A DNA stretch of 64,000 nt from sequence record PZ386972.1; one strand, 5' to 3'. Source of the DNA: a phage. A program made the position numbers and the translations under genes. The number at the start of each line of letters is the position of its first letter. Within the stretch, counting starts at the first letter, position 1. Shown here piece by piece: positions 116-52,510 of this stretch. The notes beneath the pieces are model-generated. The model was not told the origin of the DNA. It saw nothing but the letters and a program-made list of their open reading frames with translations, and searched no databases.

Positions 116-609
116 AATTTTATTCTAAGTCTAGGAATTTCAGGCTCCTCTTGATGGACTTGATAAATAACAGGGCTATTATTTACCAGAATATAGCTTA
201 TATAAGCTGGAACATAGGATAATACAAACGGATATGGAACTTTAGCTACATAGCATTGGTATTTTCCGTTATAAATTCTAGCTGAATGCAAAACTTTAGA
301 GGTAACAACATCATAGAACGTAGTTTTCTTCCAATTAATAAGATTTCCATCAGAATCTATAAATTGGCTACGCTTTGACCCAACTAATTGGGACAACATT
401 GATATTCTACCTCTAATAGGATAGAGCTTGTATGGTAATTCTTTCCGTTTCTCAAATAGAATAAGCCTACGTTGAGAAAAAGTGCCAGGCAACTTCCTAT
501 TATCTAGCACATATTTATTATATCTTGTTGTAATTACGGAATAATCACCTTCTTGCTCAATTGATACAAACGCCCGTAAAGCATATACGGGCAATTTGAA
601 ATCAAGCAC
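112..609 (-). CDS. hypothetical protein (165 aa)
   Basis: ORF track; ends 8 nt into the DNA polymerase gene, same strand, operon-like packing. Confidence 0.5.
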   Translation of the reverse strand: MLDFKLPVYALRAFVSIEQEGDYSVITTRYNKYVLDNRKLPGTFSQRRLILFEKRKELPYKLYPIRGRISMLSQLVGSKRSQFIDSDGNLINWKKTTFYDVVTSKVLHSARIYNGKYQCYVAKVPYPFVLSYVPAYISYILVNNSPVIYQVHQEEPEIPRLRIKL

Positions 610-3169
610 CGAGAATCCTTCTCACGTTATCCAAATCTTTACATACAGCAATAAACTTATCATCCTTGTATTTGCTATGATCTGGATGCTCTTTATCCAT
701 TGCAGCTAGTTTCTTATACTCGAACTCTGCATCAAGTAATACACCCTTGACATAACGAGTATATTCATCATCATCAATACAAGCGATTGATGGGTGCTGT
801 TTCTTCATCTTACCACAAGAGTAGTCACGAGAACCTCCAGCTTCAGAATCAGAATCAATACCAATCGGACAACCAGGAATACTGATACCACGGTCTTTCT
901 GAATATTACGAATCAGGATTTCATTGTATTGGTCGATCAAGTCTTCACGAACAATAGCAACTACGGAGTCATGAACCAGCATAACAATCTTCATCTCTTG
1001 TTCTAGGCCAAGAGAAATGATCTCATTATCTGCATCTACAGCACCTAAAAGGAGACTATCAGAAGAAGCAGACTGAATGATTGCGTTAAATCCAGAACGA
1101 ATTTCTTCACCCTGAACGCCACGGTCTTCGGAGTGGATATTATGCAGACGACGTTTACGACCAAAGTGACTATAGATAAATCCATGATTCTTGATCTGGT
1201 CGTGACACTTATCAATCCAACGCTTAAGCTGTGGGAACTGACCGAAGTAAGTTTCAATATAGTCCTTCGCATCCGCAACAGTACACTCTACAAACGGTTC
1301 ACCTGTCTTAGCAGCCTGTTCCAGAAGAGCTTCGTTAACAGAATGAGCTACTTTAGCTGGGCCAGAACCATACAGAATACCGAAGGTGATTGCTTTAGCT
1401 GCTTGACGCAGAGCTGGGAACAGCTTTTTAACATCACGTGGTTCGCATTGGAGTTTAAATACCATGTGTGCGATGTTAGAGTGGAAGTCCGGGTATTTAT
1501 CAGGTTCATTTCTCATGTTGATAAATACCTGTTGCATATTTCTATCACCAGATAGAACAGCAGCATAATAAACTTCCGCAGTTGTTAAGTCCCACGCGAT
1601 TACACGATACCCCGGAAGGGCTACTACACAACCCTTGATAATAGATTCATCACGAGGTAACTGCTGCAGGTTCAGTTTACCAGAAGAACTCAGACGACCA
1701 GAAGTAGTCATGTGTTCGTGGAAACCAGTACGAATGCAACCATCAGCATCAATGCTCAGAAGAATCTTCTCAACGTAAGTAGAGATCAGCTTAGTCAGCT
1801 TACGAATCTCTAGTAGAGTCTTAGCAATTGGATGCTGCGTAGACAATTCGTTCAGAGCTTCTGCATCTGTAGAGTCTGCTCCAGTATCCGTCAATTTACC
1901 TGTTGGAGTTAAGCCAACATAGTCAAACAGAAGAACACGGAGTTGTTTAACAGAGTTTGGGTTAAACGCTTCATTCTGATCTTTCTCTAGCTGAACGACT
2001 TCTGGATAAGTATACAGCTTTTCACGGGCTTTATTCAGATTATGGGTTAACTGGTACTGAGCTTCTTTTAAACGATCAATAGAAATAGGTACACCACGAT
2101 CCTCAACACGCTGGAGAAATACACAACCAGGCATTAGGACATCATAATACAGGCTGCAAAGTTTTTCATTCTTCTCAATTTTTGGTAAGAAGAAGTTGTG
2201 CAAACGTATGGTAGCATCTGTATCTTTCGCAGCGTAAGGCCACATAATATCAAACGGAATTAAATCATAGGTGAAATCTTCTTTCTTGATTTTATGTGCT
2301 TTGCAGTAGTCCTCTTTGAACTTATCTAGTTCGAAGTCATAGTCACCCATATCGGTGTACTTCATCGCTAGAGATTTCAAGCCATGAGTACCACGACGTT
2401 CATCTAGAACATAGTGCTGCAACATGGTATCATGGAGCCTGCGTTCTTTATGCGCTTTATCAAAAGTAAGTCCCAGATGGTACTTATAAAAGTGCATATC
2501 AAACTTCAAGTTGTGAAAAACAATAGTGTGGTTTTCACTATCCAGAATTTTCTGGAGATAATATACTGCAACCTCTGTGAGACAATCAGAATCGATATAT
2601 ACACCCTGATATTCTTGGTGAGACATAGAAACACCAAGCAGATAACCATCTCGACAGTATAGTGCTGAGGTTTCGGAGTCGAATGCGACAGGTCCGATAA
2701 CCATATTATACACCATCTTGATATATTCTTCTGCCTCATCAGGGTCAGTAATAGGACGGTAATCACCAGCTTTTGCAATCTTCTCACGACCATTGATAAT
2801 ATCGTGGATATTCTCTACTGTTGCATCAAAAACTGGTTTCATTTCAGGTTTAAAGTGTAACTGGGCTGGGCTGATACTCGCAATCCAGTTAGCATATCCA
2901 TTATATTCTACACGTTTACCGGTATAATCACCAATACCTTTCTTACCTGCAAAGTACAGGAAAGGTTCGGCACCTACCAGTATAACAAAATCATAATCAT
3001 TCGGATCAAATGGGTTTTCTGGTGTTCCAATAGTAATGTGCTTTTTAAGCAAACGACCAGATAACTTCTCGTTACACATATGAAATACATCAACTTCCTC
3101 GCCGTATAGCTGGAAATGTTTATCGTAACGAGTGTTATTTAGAGCTTTATCAACTACTGCGATTTTCAA
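602..3169 (-). CDS. DNA polymerase, family A, with 3'-5' exonuclease domain
   Basis: 855-aa ORF; exo motif DSETSALY; Pol I motif B KAITFGILYGSG; motif C LVHDSVV; upstream minus-strand promoter at 3231-3259. Confidence 0.9.
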   Translation of the reverse strand: MKIAVVDKALNNTRYDKHFQLYGEEVDVFHMCNEKLSGRLLKKHITIGTPENPFDPNDYDFVILVGAEPFLYFAGKKGIGDYTGKRVEYNGYANWIASISPAQLHFKPEMKPVFDATVENIHDIINGREKIAKAGDYRPITDPDEAEEYIKMVYNMVIGPVAFDSETSALYCRDGYLLGVSMSHQEYQGVYIDSDCLTEVAVYYLQKILDSENHTIVFHNLKFDMHFYKYHLGLTFDKAHKERRLHDTMLQHYVLDERRGTHGLKSLAMKYTDMGDYDFELDKFKEDYCKAHKIKKEDFTYDLIPFDIMWPYAAKDTDATIRLHNFFLPKIEKNEKLCSLYYDVLMPGCVFLQRVEDRGVPISIDRLKEAQYQLTHNLNKAREKLYTYPEVVQLEKDQNEAFNPNSVKQLRVLLFDYVGLTPTGKLTDTGADSTDAEALNELSTQHPIAKTLLEIRKLTKLISTYVEKILLSIDADGCIRTGFHEHMTTSGRLSSSGKLNLQQLPRDESIIKGCVVALPGYRVIAWDLTTAEVYYAAVLSGDRNMQQVFINMRNEPDKYPDFHSNIAHMVFKLQCEPRDVKKLFPALRQAAKAITFGILYGSGPAKVAHSVNEALLEQAAKTGEPFVECTVADAKDYIETYFGQFPQLKRWIDKCHDQIKNHGFIYSHFGRKRRLHNIHSEDRGVQGEEIRSGFNAIIQSASSDSLLLGAVDADNEIISLGLEQEMKIVMLVHDSVVAIVREDLIDQYNEILIRNIQKDRGISIPGCPIGIDSDSEAGGSRDYSCGKMKKQHPSIACIDDDEYTRYVKGVLLDAEFEYKKLAAMDKEHPDHSKYKDDKFIAVCKDLDNVRRILGA

Positions 3170-31209: not shown

Positions 31210-31592
31210 TAATTTAAAAGCTAGTAAATCGGTAGACGAAAGCCCAAGCATCTTACCTCGCAGCAGCGGTTGAAATACGAGGTTAAATAAGACCGCTGAC
31301 CATACTATAAAGTATAATCTATTGGAGATTATGTTTATTACACCAGCCTTTTAAGCTGACACGTAAGAACAAAGCGTCGTTGATATTACCGACACAACTT
31401 CAAAGATCAACATTTAAGTATGAAAGCTGAAAAGTTTAAAGAACTCAAACTTCTAAACTTCTAAAGCTAAAAGATGCAAAGTATTCGTTGATGATTCAAA
31501 CCCTAGATCAAAGGTACATGGCTTATAAGATATGGCCTGTGGCGCCTCTAGGCTGTTTATCGGTTTACTAGTTTCACAATTTAAAAATGTAT

Positions 31593-31621
31593 TTGCTAAT
31601 TTACTAAGTTATTTGTATAAT
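31593..31621 (+). promoter_or_regulatory. early promoter
   Basis: TTGCTA 31593-31598, TATAAT 31616-31621. Confidence 0.6.
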
Positions 31622-31651: not shown

Positions 31652-31969
31652 ATGACTTTTCATATTTTGATTGATGATGTGCGTAATCTTCACGGAATGG
31701 ACATTATCATTCGAACCCCAGAAGCCGCTGTAGAGTTTCTGAATAAAACTGATACCACAGGCCACTTCGTTTATATGGATAATGACTTGGCTGTAGATGG
31801 TATGGAAGGTTATCAAATTCTTCGTTTACTATTAGAATTTGGGCAGAGACCAAAGAAAGTGGTACTAGTAACCTCGAACCCAGTAGCTAAGCAAAATATG
31901 CGTAATGATTTGCTTGACTTAGGGTATAAAGAAAATCCCAATCGTGTTGAATATGATTGGCAGGAGTAA
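31652..31969 (+). CDS. hypothetical protein (105 aa)
   Basis: ORF track. Confidence 0.5.
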   Translation: MTFHILIDDVRNLHGMDIIIRTPEAAVEFLNKTDTTGHFVYMDNDLAVDGMEGYQILRLLLEFGQRPKKVVLVTSNPVAKQNMRNDLLDLGYKENPNRVEYDWQE

Positions 31970-32424
31970 AAAGAATGAAGGCAGCTTTGCTTTTAGTAGC
32001 TGCCCTTACCTTCAGCTTTAGTAGTCAGGCATCGCACGATGCAAAAGAAATAGATTGCATTGCTAAAAATATCTATTTCGAGAGTCGTGGTGAGGGCATA
32101 AAGGGAATGACGGCGATAGCACATGTTACTAAAAACCGTGTAAACTCCGGTAAATTCCCAGATTCCTACTGTAAAGTAGTATATCAGTCTAACCAGTTCT
32201 CTTGGGTATCTAAGAGACCAAAAGTTGATAAAACTGATGAGGCTTGGCAAACCGCTAAGAATTTAGCTAGAGTGATATACTACGTTGATTTACCACAAGA
32301 TCCTACACATGGAGCACTATACTTCCATAGTGGTAAAGATAAACCTTACTGGACAAAGAAGTTTAAGAAAACAACTAAGATTAAGGGACATACGTTTTAT
32401 AAACCTGTTGTCACTAAAACTTAA
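31957..32424 (+). CDS. secreted SleB-like cell wall hydrolase (Hydrolase_2 family)
   Basis: 155 aa; signal peptide MKAALLLVAALTFSFSSQA; NIYFESRGE...AHVTKNRV...QSNQFSW matches the SleB signature. Confidence 0.6.
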   Translation: MAGVKRMKAALLLVAALTFSFSSQASHDAKEIDCIAKNIYFESRGEGIKGMTAIAHVTKNRVNSGKFPDSYCKVVYQSNQFSWVSKRPKVDKTDEAWQTAKNLARVIYYVDLPQDPTHGALYFHSGKDKPYWTKKFKKTTKIKGHTFYKPVVTKT

Positions 32425-32433
32425 AAATTTACT

Positions 32434-32461
32434 TGCTTAAATACTTAAATTTCTGTATAAT
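32434..32461 (+). promoter_or_regulatory. early promoter
   Basis: TTGCTT 32434-32439, TATAAT 32456-32461. Confidence 0.55.
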
Positions 32462-32492: not shown

Positions 32493-32663
32493 ATGAAATC
32501 AGTTGTAATTATTGGTGTTAACACTCGCGGTATTCGTACTACGAAAACTGTTAAAACTTCTAACGTTGCTGAAATCACTACGAACCCTAAAAAGTTTGAT
32601 TTCGCCAAAGTCTCAGCAGTTATGACAGAACAATCTTTTAACCAAGCATTGGGGATGAAATAA
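32493..32663 (+). CDS. hypothetical small protein (56 aa), below the ORF-track size cutoff
   Basis: ATG 10 nt after GAGAGGAAG RBS, directly downstream of promoter 32434-32461; stop overlaps next start. Confidence 0.35.
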   Translation: MKSVVIIGVNTRGIRTTKTVKTSNVAEITTNPKKFDFAKVSAVMTEQSFNQALGMK

Positions 32664-33097
32664 TGGGTACGAATATGCTTCGTGTGCTGCGAGAATTAAT
32701 TGAAAAAGCTCGCAAACACGGTGATACTGTGTCAGTCAAGCACCTTAGTACGATTTTAGGCGACTTACAACGAATTGATAAAGATTGCGTATCTAGACTA
32801 GAGTTTACTAACTGGGTTAAATCACAGTTCAAAGCAATTGAGAATACAATGACTTCTGCTGCAAAAGCAAATATCGAATATACTCCAGATGCTGAATATC
32901 TCGACTTGTTAGCAGGTCTAGAGCATGAATATGCTCTGGAGCAGTTAACTGAAGTTCAGATTCGTGAGTATTTTGCAGAACTGGTTAAATTAAACCCAGG
33001 TATTACCAAAGCTCTATTAATGAAAACTATTAAGGCAGAATTTCCTGGACGTTATGATGGTAAAACAACTGCTTTGATTGCTAGTGAATTTTTCTAA
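32663..33097 (+). CDS. hypothetical protein (144 aa)
   Basis: ORF track. Confidence 0.5.
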   Translation: MGTNMLRVLRELIEKARKHGDTVSVKHLSTILGDLQRIDKDCVSRLEFTNWVKSQFKAIENTMTSAAKANIEYTPDAEYLDLLAGLEHEYALEQLTEVQIREYFAELVKLNPGITKALLMKTIKAEFPGRYDGKTTALIASEFF

Positions 33098-33357: not shown

Positions 33358-33429
33358 GCCGTCCTAGTATAATTGGTATTATCAAGCCGTAACTGGTGGA
33401 AGATGTAGGTTCGAATCCTACGGTCGGTA
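33358..33429 (+). ncRNA. tRNA-like element with canonical T-arm but no anticodon arm found by hand
   Basis: T-arm GTAGGTTCGAATCCTAC at 33405-33421; 5' segment GCCGTCC pairs to 3' GGTCGGT with one mismatch. Confidence 0.3.
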
Positions 33430-33931: not shown

Positions 33932-34006
33932 CGGGGTGTAGTCTAAGGGAGAGGCAGGAGTCTTCTAAATTCCTTTATGCAGGTTCGAATCCTGTCACCT
34001 CGGCCA
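33932..34006 (+). tRNA. tRNA-Arg (anticodon UCU)
   Basis: Acceptor CGGGGTG/CACCTCG; D-stem; anticodon loop CTTCTAA; T-arm GCAGGTTCGAATCCTGT; encoded CCA. Confidence 0.6.
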
Positions 34007-42133: not shown

Positions 42134-42331
42134 ATGGCTGATTTCTGCAAACAATGCTCCATTGATATGTGGGGCAGAGATACTGGTGATCTTTCTGGTT
42201 TGATTACAGAAGCTGAGGTCAAAGAAGGTTATGGTGCAGTTGTGATTTGCGAAGGATGCGGAGTTATTCGAGTAGATCATGAAGGCAAACGTTTAGAAGA
42301 ACAGGAAAACTTAGGAGAAACAAATGAGTAA
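42134..42331 (+). CDS. hypothetical Cys-containing protein (65 aa)
   Basis: ORF track; RBS. Confidence 0.4.
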   Translation: MADFCKQCSIDMWGRDTGDLSGLITEAEVKEGYGAVVICEGCGVIRVDHEGKRLEEQENLGETNE

Positions 42332-42827: not shown

Positions 42828-43079
42828 ATGCACGTTTTTGAGTTTCGTAATAAAAGTACCGATAAACGAGTTATTGTTATTGGAGAAACATACCGAGCAT
42901 ACGAACAAACTGACGGCTCTGTTATCCTAAACGATGAGAAAGGAGGTTTTAGCTTTTATCCAGAAGAACCTTATGAAGAGTTTCGAAAACAATTTAACCT
43001 AGACTGGAGAAAGCATTTAAACACTGTTGCTTCATCTGTAGTATTGCCAACTACCAGTACTGTACTCTCTAATGGCTGA
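42828..43079 (+). CDS. hypothetical protein (83 aa)
   Basis: ORF track; AAGGAAACA RBS. Confidence 0.4.
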   Translation: MHVFEFRNKSTDKRVIVIGETYRAYEQTDGSVILNDEKGGFSFYPEEPYEEFRKQFNLDWRKHLNTVASSVVLPTTSTVLSNG

Positions 43080-43236
43080 TAACCTAAAAGTCAAGATCGA
43101 TAAACAAAAGAAACGTGTAGAAGTAGAGATTGGTGAAGAACGTGTAGCCTTCACCTTTGAATTTCTACAACAAATGGCAATGGCGGTTATGACTGATAAG
43201 TCTCCTGTTATTGAAAAAGAAATCCCGTTGAAATAA
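43072..43236 (+). CDS. hypothetical small protein (54 aa), below the ORF-track cutoff
   Basis: ATG overlapping the upstream stop region. Confidence 0.3.
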   Translation: MADNLKVKIDKQKKRVEVEIGEERVAFTFEFLQQMAMAVMTDKSPVIEKEIPLK

Positions 43237-50949: not shown

Positions 50950-51606
50950 TTGGAAAAGTTCTTACAATTATTAACAGTACTGCTCCAAGAAGCGAAAGAT
51001 CCAGCATCGCTTCTTAAACGTCTGCTAACTATCTTAGTTGCTGTCATTATTTTCTTATTTGTTAGTAATACTAGCGAGGTGATGTCATTCTTAAAGACTT
51101 TCTCCACGTCTGCGGTTCTACAGGATGTTCAAACTCAAAGGATAGATAACTTTCCCAATGTAGCTAGAGAAAAGAGCATGGTACTCTTTTCTCAAACGGG
51201 TGCGGATGCTGTTTTTGTCGTCAAGTATAAACCCGATGCCATTAATGATTATTCTAACATTATTGCATGGGAAAGCAATGCGCAATTAGATAGGGCTGAC
51301 TTGGCCGATAAAGCGGTAAATAAAACGTCTGAGCTATATAGACGTCACTTGGAAGGCTTTAACTACGCATCGGATTTAAGTGTAAAAGTAAATAAATACA
51401 TGGGGTTAAATATACCTGCGTTTAAGAACGTTACTTTTAATTACATATACACTTGTCCGTATTTCAATCTAAACAATATCTATGCTGGATATATTGGTAT
51501 TGCTTGGAAAGATAATCCTGTAGATGCGGCCGATTCTGAGAAATTTAACGAGTATTTAACAAAGCTCTGTTCTCCACAACAGAGATCTTTAGGTAGATCA
51601 ATATGA
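50950..51606 (+). CDS. holin-like membrane protein
   Basis: 218 aa; strong TM segment LLTILVAVIIFLFV; immediately upstream of and overlapping the endolysin. Confidence 0.5.
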   Translation: MEKFLQLLTVLLQEAKDPASLLKRLLTILVAVIIFLFVSNTSEVMSFLKTFSTSAVLQDVQTQRIDNFPNVAREKSMVLFSQTGADAVFVVKYKPDAINDYSNIIAWESNAQLDRADLADKAVNKTSELYRRHLEGFNYASDLSVKVNKYMGLNIPAFKNVTFNYIYTCPYFNLNNIYAGYIGIAWKDNPVDAADSEKFNEYLTKLCSPQQRSLGRSI

Positions 51607-52016
51607 GTTTTAAATTTGGTAAAAATAGCGAAAAACAATTAGCTACCGTTAAGCCAGAGCTACAAAAAGTAGCTCGTAGAGCTTTAGAATTATCTCCATA
51701 TGATTTCACGATCGTACAGGGTATTCGTACAGTAGCACAAAGTGCCCAGAATATTGCTAATGGTACTTCATTTTTAAAAGATCCTAGTAAAAGCAAGCAT
51801 ATTACTGGGGATGCCCTTGATTTTGCTCCATACATTAATGGCAAAATTGATTGGAATGATTTAGAAGCATTTTGGGCAGTTAAAAAGGCTTTTGAACAAG
51901 CTGGTAAAGAACTGGGCATTAAACTTCGTTTTGGTGCTGATTGGAATGCTTCGGGAGATTATCACGACGAAATAAAACGTGGTACCTATGATGGTGGTCA
52001 TGTCGAACTAGTTTAA
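51603..52016 (+). CDS. endolysin, L-alanyl-D-glutamate peptidase (peptidase M15-like)
   Basis: 137 aa; HITGDALDFAP...DWNASGDYHDE...GGHVELV zinc-peptidase motifs. Confidence 0.8.
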   Translation: MSFKFGKNSEKQLATVKPELQKVARRALELSPYDFTIVQGIRTVAQSAQNIANGTSFLKDPSKSKHITGDALDFAPYINGKIDWNDLEAFWAVKKAFEQAGKELGIKLRFGADWNASGDYHDEIKRGTYDGGHVELV

Positions 52017-52093: not shown

Positions 52094-52510
52094 ATGTTTG
52101 CAGAACTATTCACTATGATGCTGCTAGGTATCTGGAAAATAAGTCTAGTAGTATTCGTTTTAATGATAGTCTTTACTATCATTGCATTAACTACCCGAAA
52201 TAGCTTATTAATAAAGGTTATTCACGGACTAGAGTATATAATTATGGGTTCATTCGGCGTTTGTAAATGCAATTGCCATAGAGATACGAAATATTGTTGG
52301 TTATGGATGGAACTAGAGAATCCTATATCCATAGCTTTGGCTGTTTCATTCGGTATGATTCTTATGGCCCTTACTCTAGCATTAATACCTTTGATGTTAG
52401 CTGGGGGAGTTACAGCGTATTTCACCCTTTTCTCCCCGATACTTATGTACTCAATTTACCCAATAACTATGTATCTAGTTAGGAAAAAATTTATACATAC
52501 AGTAGATTAA
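52094..52510 (+). CDS. hypothetical multi-pass membrane protein (138 aa)
   Basis: ORF track; several hydrophobic segments. Confidence 0.4.
   Translation: MFAELFTMMLLGIWKISLVVFVLMIVFTIIALTTRNSLLIKVIHGLEYIIMGSFGVCKCNCHRDTKYCWLWMELENPISIALAVSFGMILMALTLALIPLMLAGGVTAYFTLFSPILMYSIYPITMYLVRKKFIHTVD

What the first reader, a model, noticed from the sequence alone, without database searches (positions are those of the whole stretch)
31957..32424. Secreted SleB-like cell-wall hydrolase encoded far from the lysis cassette
The ORF has a signal peptide and the Hydrolase_2 (SleB) motif and is expressed from an early promoter about 19 kb from the holin and endolysin. It could remodel peptidoglycan during infection or entry, not at lysis.
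Basis: partly seen in the sequence, partly recalled or inferred. Interest (0 to 1): 0.45.

Follow-up and report, generated by a model that had tools for sequence, protein, structure and literature searches.

The report
Exported SleB-type wall hydrolase of T5
This is the already-annotated T5.083 gene of T5-like phages, a small exported peptidoglycan-cutting enzyme encoded 18.5 kb from the holin-endolysin pair. The gene is real and strongly conserved, but its role has never been tested and it is most likely a second, lysis-related wall-degrading enzyme.

Summary
The window is a T5-like phage (Tequintavirus). The ORF is the ortholog of T5.083: 97% identical to T5 and 100% identical to many deposited phages.

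- **Coding sequence:** the real CDS is 31975-32424 (ATG, AGGAG ribosome-binding site, 149 aa), not the mechanical TTG start at 31957.
- **Domain:** it matches Pfam Hydrolase_2 (E 2e-25). An AlphaFold model superposes on the SleB catalytic domains (TM 0.7-0.8), and the catalytic Glu (E36) is invariant.
- **Export:** a Sec-type signal peptide (cleavage SQA|S) keeps its -3/-1 rule across diverged orthologs. Two invariant cysteines fit a periplasmic disulfide.
- **Conservation:** dN/dS is about 0.08-0.10, and nearly all Markadamsvirinae genomes carry the gene.
- **Transcription:** it is the second gene of a two-gene unit behind a conserved sigma-70 promoter.
- **Position:** it lies 18.5 kb upstream of the T-type holin and M15 endolysin.

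A role in entry is excluded, because the gene lies on second-step-transfer DNA in the early region. "Not at lysis" is unsupported: the lysis cassette is itself in the early region, and exported SleB-type enzymes sit in or beside the lysis genes of other Gram-negative phages.

The far-from-holin position is already published. No functional study of this protein was found in the searchable library. Interest is low to moderate.

The parts
31593..31621 (+). Sigma-70-type promoter (-35 TTGCTA, 17-nt spacer, -10 TATAAT) driving the two-gene unit cREC gene + SleB-like gene
   Evidence: Promoter scan gives 10/12 matches. The hexamers are invariant and the spacer varies in window/T5/STG2/Elw. The site coincides with a 'regulatory promoter' feature of NC_005859 at 43067-43141. 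Activity was not measured here.
31652..31969 (+). Upstream co-oriented gene, the T5.084 ortholog, 105 aa, with a cREC_REC (cyclic-phosphate processing receiver) domain
   Evidence: Pfam PF20274 at E 3.8e-15 and PHROG 1479. It ends 5 nt before the SleB-like ATG. It is absent next to the SleB-like gene in Sugarlandvirus and Kamaji, so it is probably not a functional partner.
31962..31966 (+). Shine-Dalgarno sequence AGGAG, 8 nt before the ATG
   Evidence: Read directly from the sequence.
31975..32424 (+). CDS of the exported SleB-type (Hydrolase_2) peptidoglycan-cleaving enzyme, the T5.083 ortholog, 149 aa plus stop
   Evidence: dN/dS is 0.08-0.10 against T5 and STG2. The protein is 100% identical to proteins of several deposited T5-like phages.
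31975..32031 (+). Signal peptide, residues 1-19 (MKAALLLVAALTFSFSSQA), predicted signal peptidase I cleavage before S20
   Evidence: Hydropathy and n/h/c layout. The -3/-1 rule is conserved across orthologs. Every family member in alignment A1 has an N-terminal hydrophobic segment, and the cellular relatives have one with one exception. No SignalP run was possible.
32080..32082 (+). Codon of Glu36, the predicted catalytic glutamate (motif YFESRGE)
   Evidence: Invariant in 32 family members. It aligns with the Glu of YGESRGE in B. cereus and B. anthracis SleB. The catalytic role in SleB comes from the literature (Li et al. 2012, quoted in PMC11148199).
32056..32058 (+). Codon of Cys28, one of the only two cysteines in the protein
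   Evidence: C28 and C66 are invariant in A1 and conserved in 12 of the 13 cellular relatives. Bacillus SleB has Met/Gly at these positions. A periplasmic disulfide is inferred; the geometry was not checked.
32170..32172 (+). Codon of Cys66, the second invariant cysteine
32433..32461 (+). Next promoter (TTGCTT-17-TATAAT) just after the stop codon; it starts the following transcription unit (T5.082/T5.081 orthologs)
   Evidence: Read from the sequence. It corresponds to the annotated T5 promoter 'P-D/E 33' at 42227-42301. No terminator-like site lies between the two units.
50950..51606 (+). Holin of the lysis cassette (T4 T-type), for reference
   Evidence: Pfam Phage_holin_T at E 8e-114.
51603..52016 (+). 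Canonical endolysin (M15 L-alanyl-D-glutamate peptidase, EndoT5 ortholog), for reference
   Evidence: Pfam Peptidase_M15_4 at E 1e-4, 23.2 bits, below the 25-bit cutoff. tblastn hits are annotated lys / L-alanyl-D-glutamate peptidase.

Best explanation
The gene encodes a small (about 15 kDa mature, pI 9.7) single-domain enzyme with the SleB fold.

**Proposed steps**
1. The gene is transcribed with the upstream cREC gene from a conserved sigma-70 promoter of the T5 early region.
2. The protein is exported by the Sec pathway.
3. Signal peptidase I cleaves it after Ala19.
4. It is oxidised in the periplasm, forming a Cys28-Cys66 disulfide.
5. It cleaves the glycan strands of the host's peptidoglycan, using Glu36 as the catalytic acid.

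It therefore reaches the wall without needing the holin. I think it most likely acts as an auxiliary, second muralytic enzyme that supports host lysis alongside the holin-dependent M15 endopeptidase. It may be pre-positioned in the periplasm and become effective when the membrane is de-energised at holin triggering. I consider an entry factor excluded, and a dedicated 'remodelling' enzyme less likely.

**Shown here:** domain, fold, conserved catalytic residue, export-signal features, purifying selection, near-universal retention, gene position.

**Inferred:** actual export and cleavage, the disulfide, lytic-transglycosylase chemistry, timing, and the lysis-related role.
For: **Domain and fold**
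- Hydrolase_2 at 89.7 bits.
- Foldseek top hits are the SleB catalytic domains, TM 0.71-0.80, probability 1.0, on a model with pLDDT 89.6.
- E36 is invariant.

**Export**
- Sec-type n/h/c signal with -3/-1 small residues conserved through sequence change.
- The protein has only two cysteines. Both are invariant in the phage and metagenome family and conserved in 12 of the 13 cellular relatives, but absent from cytoplasm-made Bacillus SleB at the aligned positions.
- Cellular relatives in Gram-negative genomes carry N-terminal signals or anchors, with one exception (L009).

**Selection and retention**
- dN/dS is 0.08-0.10.
- The gene is found at >=80% identity in 436 phage records, against 444 for the DNA polymerase of the same phages.

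**Activity of the fold on ordinary Gram-negative walls (literature)**
- A SleB-fold T6SS effector is toxic in the E. coli periplasm, and this depends on its catalytic Glu (PMC11148199).
- The signal-peptide-bearing SleB-like CB7_83 is toxic when expressed in E. coli (PMC7344957).

**Link to lysis**
- ST32 gp78, a SleB-type protein with an N-terminal signal, lies directly after the holin.
- Vequintavirinae and Pakpunavirus homologs also carry N-terminal signals or TM segments.
- In the T5 CRISPRi-ART screen the holin is 'Fit', while both lys and T5.083 are 'Not Fit'. This is compatible with redundancy between two muralytic enzymes (PMC11879866 supplement).
Against: - No experiment on this protein was found: no main-text mention of T5.083, and the characterised T5-like 'LysSTG2' is the M15 enzyme.
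- A freely active periplasmic glycan-cleaving enzyme made from early times should cause premature lysis. Some restraint must therefore be assumed, and no inhibitor, anchor or SAR-type tether is evident.
- There is no holin, pinholin or membrane-protein gene beside it.
- The CRISPRi-ART 'Not Fit' call is weak evidence. Several classically essential T5 genes (for example D10 and D13) are also 'Not Fit' in that screen.
- SignalP was not run, and cleavage versus signal-anchor behaviour is unproven.
- The Cys-Cys distance in the model could not be inspected.
Confidence: 0.55

Rival explanations
1. **Peptidoglycan remodelling during the latent period.** The exported enzyme acts at low level from early times to loosen or reshape the sacculus. 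Possible purposes are to allow cell enlargement, to alter envelope turnover, or to release anhydromuropeptides. Under this reading it has no direct role in the final lysis step.
For: - The gene has its own promoter in the early region, 18.5 kb from the lysis cassette.
- Export does not depend on the holin.
- Cellular homologs are housekeeping remodelling enzymes. Loss of Zymomonas SleB alters growth, shape and cross-linking (bioRxiv 10.64898/2026.07.21.739787).
- The gene is strongly retained yet shows no fitness cost on knock-down in rich laboratory culture.
Against: - T5's holin and endolysin are also early-region genes, so timing does not separate the two roles.
- Homologs in other phages are lysis-cassette or proposed endolysins.
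- No benefit of remodelling to a virulent phage with a short cycle has been demonstrated.
Confidence: 0.2
2. **SAR-type or membrane-tethered endolysin.** The N-terminal segment is not cleaved. It holds the enzyme inactive on the inner membrane until depolarisation releases it, as in P1 Lyz or phage 21 R.
For: - The hydrophobic segment is rich in Ala/Ser/Thr (AALLLVAALTFSFSS), a composition reminiscent of SAR domains.
- The Pakpunavirus homolog has an N-terminal TM-like segment without an obvious AXA site.
- Tethering would explain the absence of premature lysis.
Against: - The hydrophobic core is only about 13-15 residues, short for a TM helix.
- It is followed by a conserved signal-peptidase-type -3/-1 site in all five diverged orthologs.
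- The partner holin is a large-hole T4 T-type holin, not a pinholin.
- Both cysteines lie in the mature domain, not in the N-terminal segment.
Confidence: 0.12
3. **Dispensable relic or moron.** The gene is an inherited second 'endolysin' with no significant function in present-day T5-like phages.
For: - 'Not Fit' in CRISPRi-ART.
- At least one Klebsiella T5-like phage, vB_Kpn_3, carries a broken copy: two BLAST pieces and a 96-aa annotated product.
Against: - dN/dS is 0.08-0.10.
- The catalytic Glu and both Cys are invariant.
- The signal-peptide logic is conserved.
- The gene is present in about 98% of close relatives and in more distant Demerecviridae.
Confidence: 0.08
4. **Virion-associated or entry lysin** that digests peptidoglycan during DNA injection.
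For: Only the muralytic domain itself supports this.
Against: - The gene lies among early genes next to the tRNA cluster, not in the late structural module.
- It carries a Sec signal, which a virion protein would not need.
- It is not among the four AKFV33 virion proteins identified by mass spectrometry.
- It lies on second-step-transfer DNA.
- From my own knowledge, T5 pb2 carries the entry muralytic activity.
Confidence: 0.02

Closest known systems
Phage T5 gene T5.083 (YP_006911.1; RefSeq 'endolysin', elsewhere 'SleB putative cell wall hydrolase' or 'spore cortex-lytic enzyme precursor')
   Same: It is the ortholog: 149 aa with 4 amino-acid differences. It has the same neighbours (T5.084 cREC gene upstream, T5.082/T5.081 downstream), the same flanking promoters, and the same distance from lys/hol. 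Several deposited T5-like phages encode a 100% identical protein.
   Different: Nothing of substance differs. T5.083 is itself functionally uncharacterised, and no paper text mentions it.
SleB-like, signal-peptide-bearing proteins of Vequintavirinae/Certrevirus (CB7_83, CR3_087, CR9 gp095, nomo_28) and the Chaseviridae ST32 gp78 endolysin
   Same: All are single Hydrolase_2 domains preceded by an N-terminal Sec-type signal, at 35-46% identity. CB7_83 is reported to have a signal peptide and to be toxic in E. coli.
   Different: In those phages the enzyme is the proposed or annotated main endolysin and can sit next to a holin or holin candidate. In T5-like phages it coexists with a canonical holin plus M15 endolysin and has no membrane-protein neighbour. 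The cysteine positions differ in the Vequintavirinae proteins.
Bacillus spore cortex-lytic enzyme SleB (PDB 4F55, 4FET)
   Same: The catalytic-domain fold is the same (TM 0.71-0.80) at about 28-31% identity, and the YxESRGE catalytic Glu motif is conserved.
   Different: The phage protein has no N-terminal PG_binding_1 domain. It scores 50 bits against the 236.5-bit cutoff of the TIGR02869 equivalog. It has a signal peptide and two family-specific cysteines. The host wall has no muramic-delta-lactam, the feature SleB recognises in spore cortex (established knowledge).
Small periplasmic Hydrolase_2 proteins of Gram-negative bacteria (e.g. Zymomonas mobilis SleB) and the SleB-fold T6SS effector T6EC3
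   Same: They share the catalytic domain and act in the Gram-negative periplasm. The cellular relatives found here are 30-43% identical and carry signal peptides or anchors and the same two cysteines, with one exception (L009). T6EC3 toxicity depends on the equivalent Glu.
   Different: Those are housekeeping enzymes or inter-bacterial toxins with immunity proteins. The phage gene has no adjacent periplasmic immunity candidate.
Exported endolysins: Sec-signal Lys44 of oenophage fOg44, and SAR endolysins P1 Lyz and phage 21 R (own knowledge)
   Same: The concept is the same: a muralytic enzyme reaches the wall compartment without the holin pore and is unleashed by membrane de-energisation.
   Different: They have different catalytic folds (lysozyme-type). 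Latency and activation have not been tested for T5.083. T5 also keeps a classical cytoplasmic endolysin.

Membership tests
Pfam Hydrolase_2 (PF07486) / SleB-type catalytic domain | Profile score above the curated gathering threshold over the whole domain | tested here: met
   89.7 bits against a cutoff of 27; model positions 1-100 of 100.
Pfam Hydrolase_2 (PF07486) / SleB-type catalytic domain | Conserved catalytic glutamate in the N-terminal helix motif (Y-x-E-[SA]-R-G-E) | tested here: met
   E36 is invariant in 32 sequences and aligns with the Glu of YGESRGE in 4f55/4fet.
Pfam Hydrolase_2 (PF07486) / SleB-type catalytic domain | SleB catalytic-domain fold | tested here: met
   AF2 model pLDDT 89.6. 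The only significant Foldseek PDB hits are 4f55 and 4fet, TM 0.71-0.80, rmsd 2.3-2.9 A.
Pfam Hydrolase_2 (PF07486) / SleB-type catalytic domain | Lytic transglycosylase chemistry (1,6-anhydroMurNAc products) | not testable with these tools
   This needs sacculus digestion and LC-MS.
Spore cortex-lytic enzyme SleB proper (NCBIfam TIGR02869 equivalog) | Score above the equivalog cutoff | tested here: not met
   50.3 bits against a cutoff of 236.5; only model positions 79-201 (the catalytic half) are matched.
Spore cortex-lytic enzyme SleB proper (NCBIfam TIGR02869 equivalog) | N-terminal peptidoglycan-binding domain | tested here: not met
   Hydrolase_2 is the only Pfam domain; the 149-aa protein has just a signal peptide before it.
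Canonical holin-dependent phage endolysin | Encoded in a lysis cassette next to the holin | tested here: not met
   The holin and M15 endolysin lie 18.5 kb away. No membrane-protein ORF flanks the gene.
Canonical holin-dependent phage endolysin | Cytoplasmic accumulation (no export signal) | tested here: not met
   An N-terminal Sec-type signal is present and conserved.
Canonical holin-dependent phage endolysin | Required for host lysis | tested here: inconclusive
   Literature only. T5.083 is 'Not Fit' in CRISPRi-ART, but so are lys and several essential genes.
Exported (Sec-signal) endolysins | Cleavable N-terminal signal peptide: positive n-region, hydrophobic h-region, small residues at -3/-1 | tested here: met
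   MK / AALLLVAALTFSF / SSQA|S. The -3/-1 rule holds in T5, STG2, PWKp9S and Kamaji. This is rule-based only; SignalP is not available.
Exported (Sec-signal) endolysins | Latency until membrane depolarisation | not testable with these tools
   This needs expression with and without energy poisons.
SAR endolysins | Uncleaved, weakly hydrophobic Gly/Ala-rich TM segment of about 20 residues, usually with a pinholin partner | tested here: not met
   The hydrophobic core is about 13-15 residues and is followed by a conserved AXA-type site. The holin is T4 T-type. This is not excluded experimentally.
Virion-associated lysin | Encoded in the structural (late) module and present in virions | tested here: not met
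   The gene lies among early genes beside the tRNA cluster. It is not among the virion proteins reported for AKFV33.

The most novel reading that the evidence does not exclude
T5-like phages may run a two-track lysis system. In this reading a Sec-exported SleB-type lytic transglycosylase is loaded into the periplasm from early times and is held latent by the energised membrane. Holin triggering unleashes it in parallel with the cytoplasmic M15 endopeptidase. The two enzymes would be mutually redundant, which would explain why knock-down of either lys or T5.083 has no fitness cost in T5 while the holin is required. The exported enzyme would become important on hosts or growth states where one bond type is protected.
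Probability: 0.25. Interest if true: 0.5.

Novelty: already known. Interest (0 to 1): 0.25.

Why it matters
T5 is a model phage, and T5-like phages are widely used for biocontrol. Almost all of them keep, under strong purifying selection, an exported wall-cleaving enzyme in addition to the classical holin-endolysin pair, and no functional test of it was found.

Knowing whether it is a redundant endolysin, a conditional lysis aid or a remodelling enzyme would:
- complete the T5 lysis pathway;
- show how an exported glycan-cleaving enzyme is kept harmless until lysis;
- possibly provide a small, basic, naturally periplasm-adapted enzyme for antibacterial use.

As a genomic observation it adds nothing new. 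The gene is annotated in hundreds of genomes, and its distance from the holin has been pointed out in print (PMC11180984).

Tried and rejected
- **LysSTG2.** I suspected that this enzyme, from a T5-like Salmonella phage whose SleB-like gene is annotated 'endolysin', might be a characterised ortholog. It is the M15C peptidase instead.
- **Literature.** I searched for T5.083/YP_006911 (no hits), for T5 transcriptome time courses (nothing usable), and for virion or lysate proteomics of a T5-like phage (supplement not held).
- **Adjacent partner gene.** I looked for a holin, immunity or membrane-protein partner.
  - T5.082 (DUF7616, 56 aa) has no signal or TM segment.
  - The ORF overlapping the Kamaji homolog is acidic and soluble.
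  - The cREC neighbour is not conserved next to the gene in Sugarlandvirus or Kamaji.
- **Alternative signals.** I considered a lipoprotein or Tat signal. There is no Cys in the signal and no RR motif.
- **TTG start.** I considered the TTG start at 31957. It has no Shine-Dalgarno sequence upstream, and annotation practice uses the ATG.
- **Antisense ORF.** I treated the 85-aa antisense ORF at 31993-32250 as spurious, but it was not searched against any family library.
- **Disulfide geometry.** The model's coordinates are not exposed, so it could not be measured.
Full report
**What the window is.** A 2.5-kb stretch around the finding is 98.8% identical to Escherichia phage vB_EcoD-Elw. It matches 448 phage records, almost all T5-like Salmonella and Escherichia phages. 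Against the reference T5 genome (NC_005859) the window is in reverse-complement orientation. The ORF corresponds to T5.083 (YP_006911.1), which RefSeq labels 'endolysin'. Other records call it 'SleB putative cell wall hydrolase', 'spore cortex-lytic enzyme precursor' or 'hypothetical protein'.

**Checking the observation.**

- *ORF and start.* The ORF lister gives 31957-32424 from a TTG. That start overlaps the stop codon of the upstream gene and has no ribosome-binding site. The ATG at 31975 follows AGGAG at 31962-31966 and is the start annotated in T5 and Elw. The CDS is therefore 31975-32424, 149 aa.
- *Domain.* The protein matches Pfam Hydrolase_2 over the whole model (E 2.2e-25, 89.7 bits, cutoff 27) and PHROG 938 'endolysin'. 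By sequence it finds only the SleB catalytic domains in the PDB (4f55 and 4fet, E about 1e-8).
- *Fold.* An AlphaFold2 model built on a 32-sequence alignment (pLDDT 89.6) has only those structures as significant Foldseek hits (TM 0.71-0.80).
- *Catalytic residue.* The glutamate of the YFESRGE motif (E36) is invariant across the family. It aligns with the SleB catalytic glutamate (role quoted from Li et al. 2012 in PMC11148199).

**Export signal.** The N-terminus has the textbook layout:

- a positive n-region (MK);
- a 13-residue hydrophobic core (AALLLVAALTFSF, Kyte-Doolittle 2.0-2.6);
- a polar c-region ending SQA, followed by Ser20.

There is no lipobox cysteine and no twin-arginine. Five orthologs range from T5 to Klebsiella Sugarlandvirus and Serratia phage Kamaji (57-97% identity). 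In them the signal region evolves faster than the mature part (dN 0.13 against 0.05 for window versus STG2), yet it always keeps small residues at -3/-1: SQA|S, SHA|T, AQA|K, AIA|S.

Independent support comes from the cysteines. The protein has only two, C28 and C66. Both are invariant in 32 family members and conserved in 12 of the 13 cellular relatives from Gram-negative genomes. Those relatives also start with a signal peptide or membrane anchor, with one exception, L009. Bacillus SleB has Met and Gly at the aligned positions. I read this as a periplasmic disulfide. It is an inference, because the model coordinates could not be examined. SignalP could not be run.

**Selection and distribution.** dN/dS is 0.08-0.10 against T5 and the Epseptimavirus STG2. 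tblastn finds the protein at >=80% identity in 436 phage records, against 444 for the DNA polymerase of the same phages. At 60-80% identity the counts are 85 and 104. It is therefore nearly a core gene of Markadamsvirinae, and it is present in Sugarlandvirus and other Demerecviridae. One Klebsiella phage has a broken copy.

**Transcription context.** A TTGCTA-17-TATAAT site lies at 31593-31621, upstream of the preceding 105-aa gene. That gene carries a cREC_REC domain (PF20274).

- The two hexamers are invariant while the spacer varies among four phages.
- The site coincides with a promoter feature of the T5 record.
- A second promoter (TTGCTT-17-TATAAT, 32433-32461) starts the next unit right after the stop codon. 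It corresponds to T5 'P-D/E 33'.

The SleB-like gene is thus the distal gene of a two-gene unit. The cREC gene is not next to it in Sugarlandvirus or Kamaji, where the SleB-like gene has its own upstream region. I therefore do not consider the two genes functional partners. Expression timing was not measured, and I found no usable time-course data.

**Distance from the lysis cassette.** The holin (Phage_holin_T, E 8e-114) is at 50950-51606. The overlapping endolysin, the EndoT5 ortholog, is at 51603-52016. It gives only a weak Peptidase_M15_4 hit at 23.2 bits, below the 25-bit cutoff. Both are on the same strand, 18.5 kb downstream, and 22 tRNA genes lie in between.

**What it most likely does.** The sequence-level picture is a small basic enzyme (mature about 15 kDa, pI 9.7). 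It is exported by Sec and cleaves peptidoglycan glycan strands from the periplasmic side, independently of the holin.

Two reports show that SleB-fold enzymes can attack ordinary Gram-negative walls:

- A SleB-fold T6SS effector rounds and bursts E. coli when active in the periplasm, and an E-to-Q change at the equivalent glutamate abolishes this (PMC11148199).
- The signal-peptide-bearing SleB-like protein CB7_83 of a Pectobacterium phage is toxic when expressed in E. coli (PMC7344957).

Comparison with other phages is informative. N-terminal export signals are the rule for this domain in phages of Gram-negative hosts: CR9 gp095, Vequintavirus nomo_28, Pakpunavirus ORF33 and Chaseviridae ST32 gp78 all have one. 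In ST32 the gene lies directly behind the holin. In Certrevirus it is the proposed endolysin, with a candidate holin overlapping it.

By analogy, my best explanation is that T5.083 is an exported, auxiliary muralytic enzyme serving lysis alongside the M15 endopeptidase. The two enzymes cut different bonds: glycan versus L-Ala-D-Glu.

A genome-wide dCas13d knock-down screen of T5 scored three relevant genes (PMC11879866 supplement):

| Gene | Call |
|---|---|
| Holin | 'Fit' |
| lys | 'Not Fit' |
| T5.083 (mean -3.97, p 0.73, 5 guides) | 'Not Fit' |

This fits redundancy, but it is weak evidence. Several classically essential genes are also 'Not Fit' in that screen.

**What is not supported.** An entry role is excluded on positional grounds. 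The gene is at about 35% of the T5 map, on DNA delivered only in the second transfer step, among early genes and not in the structural module. It also carries a secretion signal, which a virion protein would not need. T5's entry muralytic activity is attributed to tail protein pb2 (own knowledge). 'Not at lysis' does not follow from the early promoter, because T5's holin and endolysin are themselves early-region genes. A remodelling role during the latent period remains possible. Cellular homologs such as Zymomonas SleB are remodelling enzymes. Nothing here favours that role over a lysis role, however.

**Open problem.** An unrestrained periplasmic glycan-cleaving enzyme made early should lyse cells prematurely. 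There is no evident inhibitor, tether or partner gene. Either its activity or amount is low, or it is latent until the membrane is de-energised, as described for other exported endolysins (own knowledge: fOg44 Lys44, SAR endolysins). The SAR alternative is less likely, because the hydrophobic core is short and is followed by a conserved cleavage-type site.

**Family membership.** The protein is a member of Pfam Hydrolase_2 by score, motif and fold. It is not a SleB ortholog in the strict sense: it scores 50 bits against the 236.5-bit cutoff of TIGR02869 and has no peptidoglycan-binding domain. It fails the positional and topological criteria of a canonical holin-dependent endolysin, and it meets the sequence criteria of an exported endolysin.

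**Novelty.** None at the level of the observation.

- The identical protein is in public records.
- AKFV33 ORF81 was described as 'cell wall hydrolase SleB' among early genes in 2012 (PMC3326045).
- A 2024 paper explicitly noted that T5-like Salmonella phages have an M15 endolysin next to the holin and a SleB-domain 'endolysin' far from it (PMC11180984).

The function is experimentally open. No paper text mentions T5.083, and the characterised 'LysSTG2' is the M15 enzyme.

**Seen in passing.** The about 380-nt non-coding stretch just upstream of the promoter (31213-31590) is unusually conserved. It is nearly identical between Tequintavirus and Epseptimavirus, although synonymous sites in the adjacent gene have diverged (dS about 0.67). 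It is still alignable to Serratia phage Kamaji.

On the + strand it folds with z = -4.1. Its long closing helix keeps pairing through about eight double changes in Kamaji: CTAGTAAA/TTTACTAG becomes TGCTGGGA/TTCCAGCA. It has no Rfam match and no annotation in the T5 record. It also contains repeated GATCAAAG-like motifs. This may be an undescribed structured RNA or a cis element, and it could merit a look of its own.

Noticed in passing
window 31213-31590 (+), between the T5.085-like ORF and the promoter at 31593: An about 380-nt non-coding element is far more conserved than neighbouring synonymous sites. It is nearly identical in Tequintavirus and Epseptimavirus and alignable to Serratia phage Kamaji. 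The + strand folds at -96.6 kcal/mol, z = -4.09, against z = -2.06 for the - strand. A roughly 25-bp closing helix keeps pairing through about 8 double substitutions in Kamaji, and a small hairpin (CAGCC..GCTG versus CAGAC..TCTG) covaries within T5-likes. There is no Rfam hit and no annotation in NC_005859. It contains repeated GATCAAAG-like motifs. It is a candidate structured RNA or cis element.
   Followed up: partly
window 31652-31969 (+): The gene co-transcribed upstream of the hydrolase encodes a cREC_REC domain (cyclic-phosphate processing receiver; PF20274, E 3.8e-15), a domain associated with RNA-repair systems. It sits beside the tRNA cluster and a 'tRNA amidotransferase'-like gene (32663-33097, PHROG 1460). 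Its function in T5 is unknown.
   Followed up: partly
window 52094-52510 (+): The ORF immediately downstream of the M15 endolysin (T5.039 ortholog, 138 aa, PHROG 5944 'unknown') looks like a polytopic membrane protein with several long hydrophobic stretches. No obvious Rz/Rz1-type spanin pair was seen next to the cassette. It may be an unrecognised lysis accessory.
   Followed up: no
window 33358-33429 (+): Rfam gives a weak tRNA match (35.5 bits) that ARAGORN does not call. It lies inside the stretch corresponding to T5's annotated 'RNAX, stable RNA with unknown functions', between the T5.081 ortholog and tRNA-Arg(tct) at 33932-34006. It may be a degenerate tRNA-like module within RNAX.
   Followed up: partly
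literature: T5 CRISPRi-ART data (PMC11879866, supplementary file 16): In the T5 knock-down screen the holin is 'Fit' but the canonical endolysin lys is 'Not Fit', as is T5.083. This could reflect redundancy of the two muralytic enzymes or simply low screen sensitivity, since D10 and D13 are also 'Not Fit'.
   Followed up: partly
window 31975-32424 compared with DNA polymerase (602-3169) and lys (51603-52016): Between Tequintavirus and Epseptimavirus the SleB-like protein is clearly more diverged (a bimodal distribution, >=99% or 80-90% identity) than the DNA polymerase or the M15 endolysin (mostly 95-99%). Much of the difference lies in the signal peptide and the first residues of the mature protein.
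   Followed up: partly
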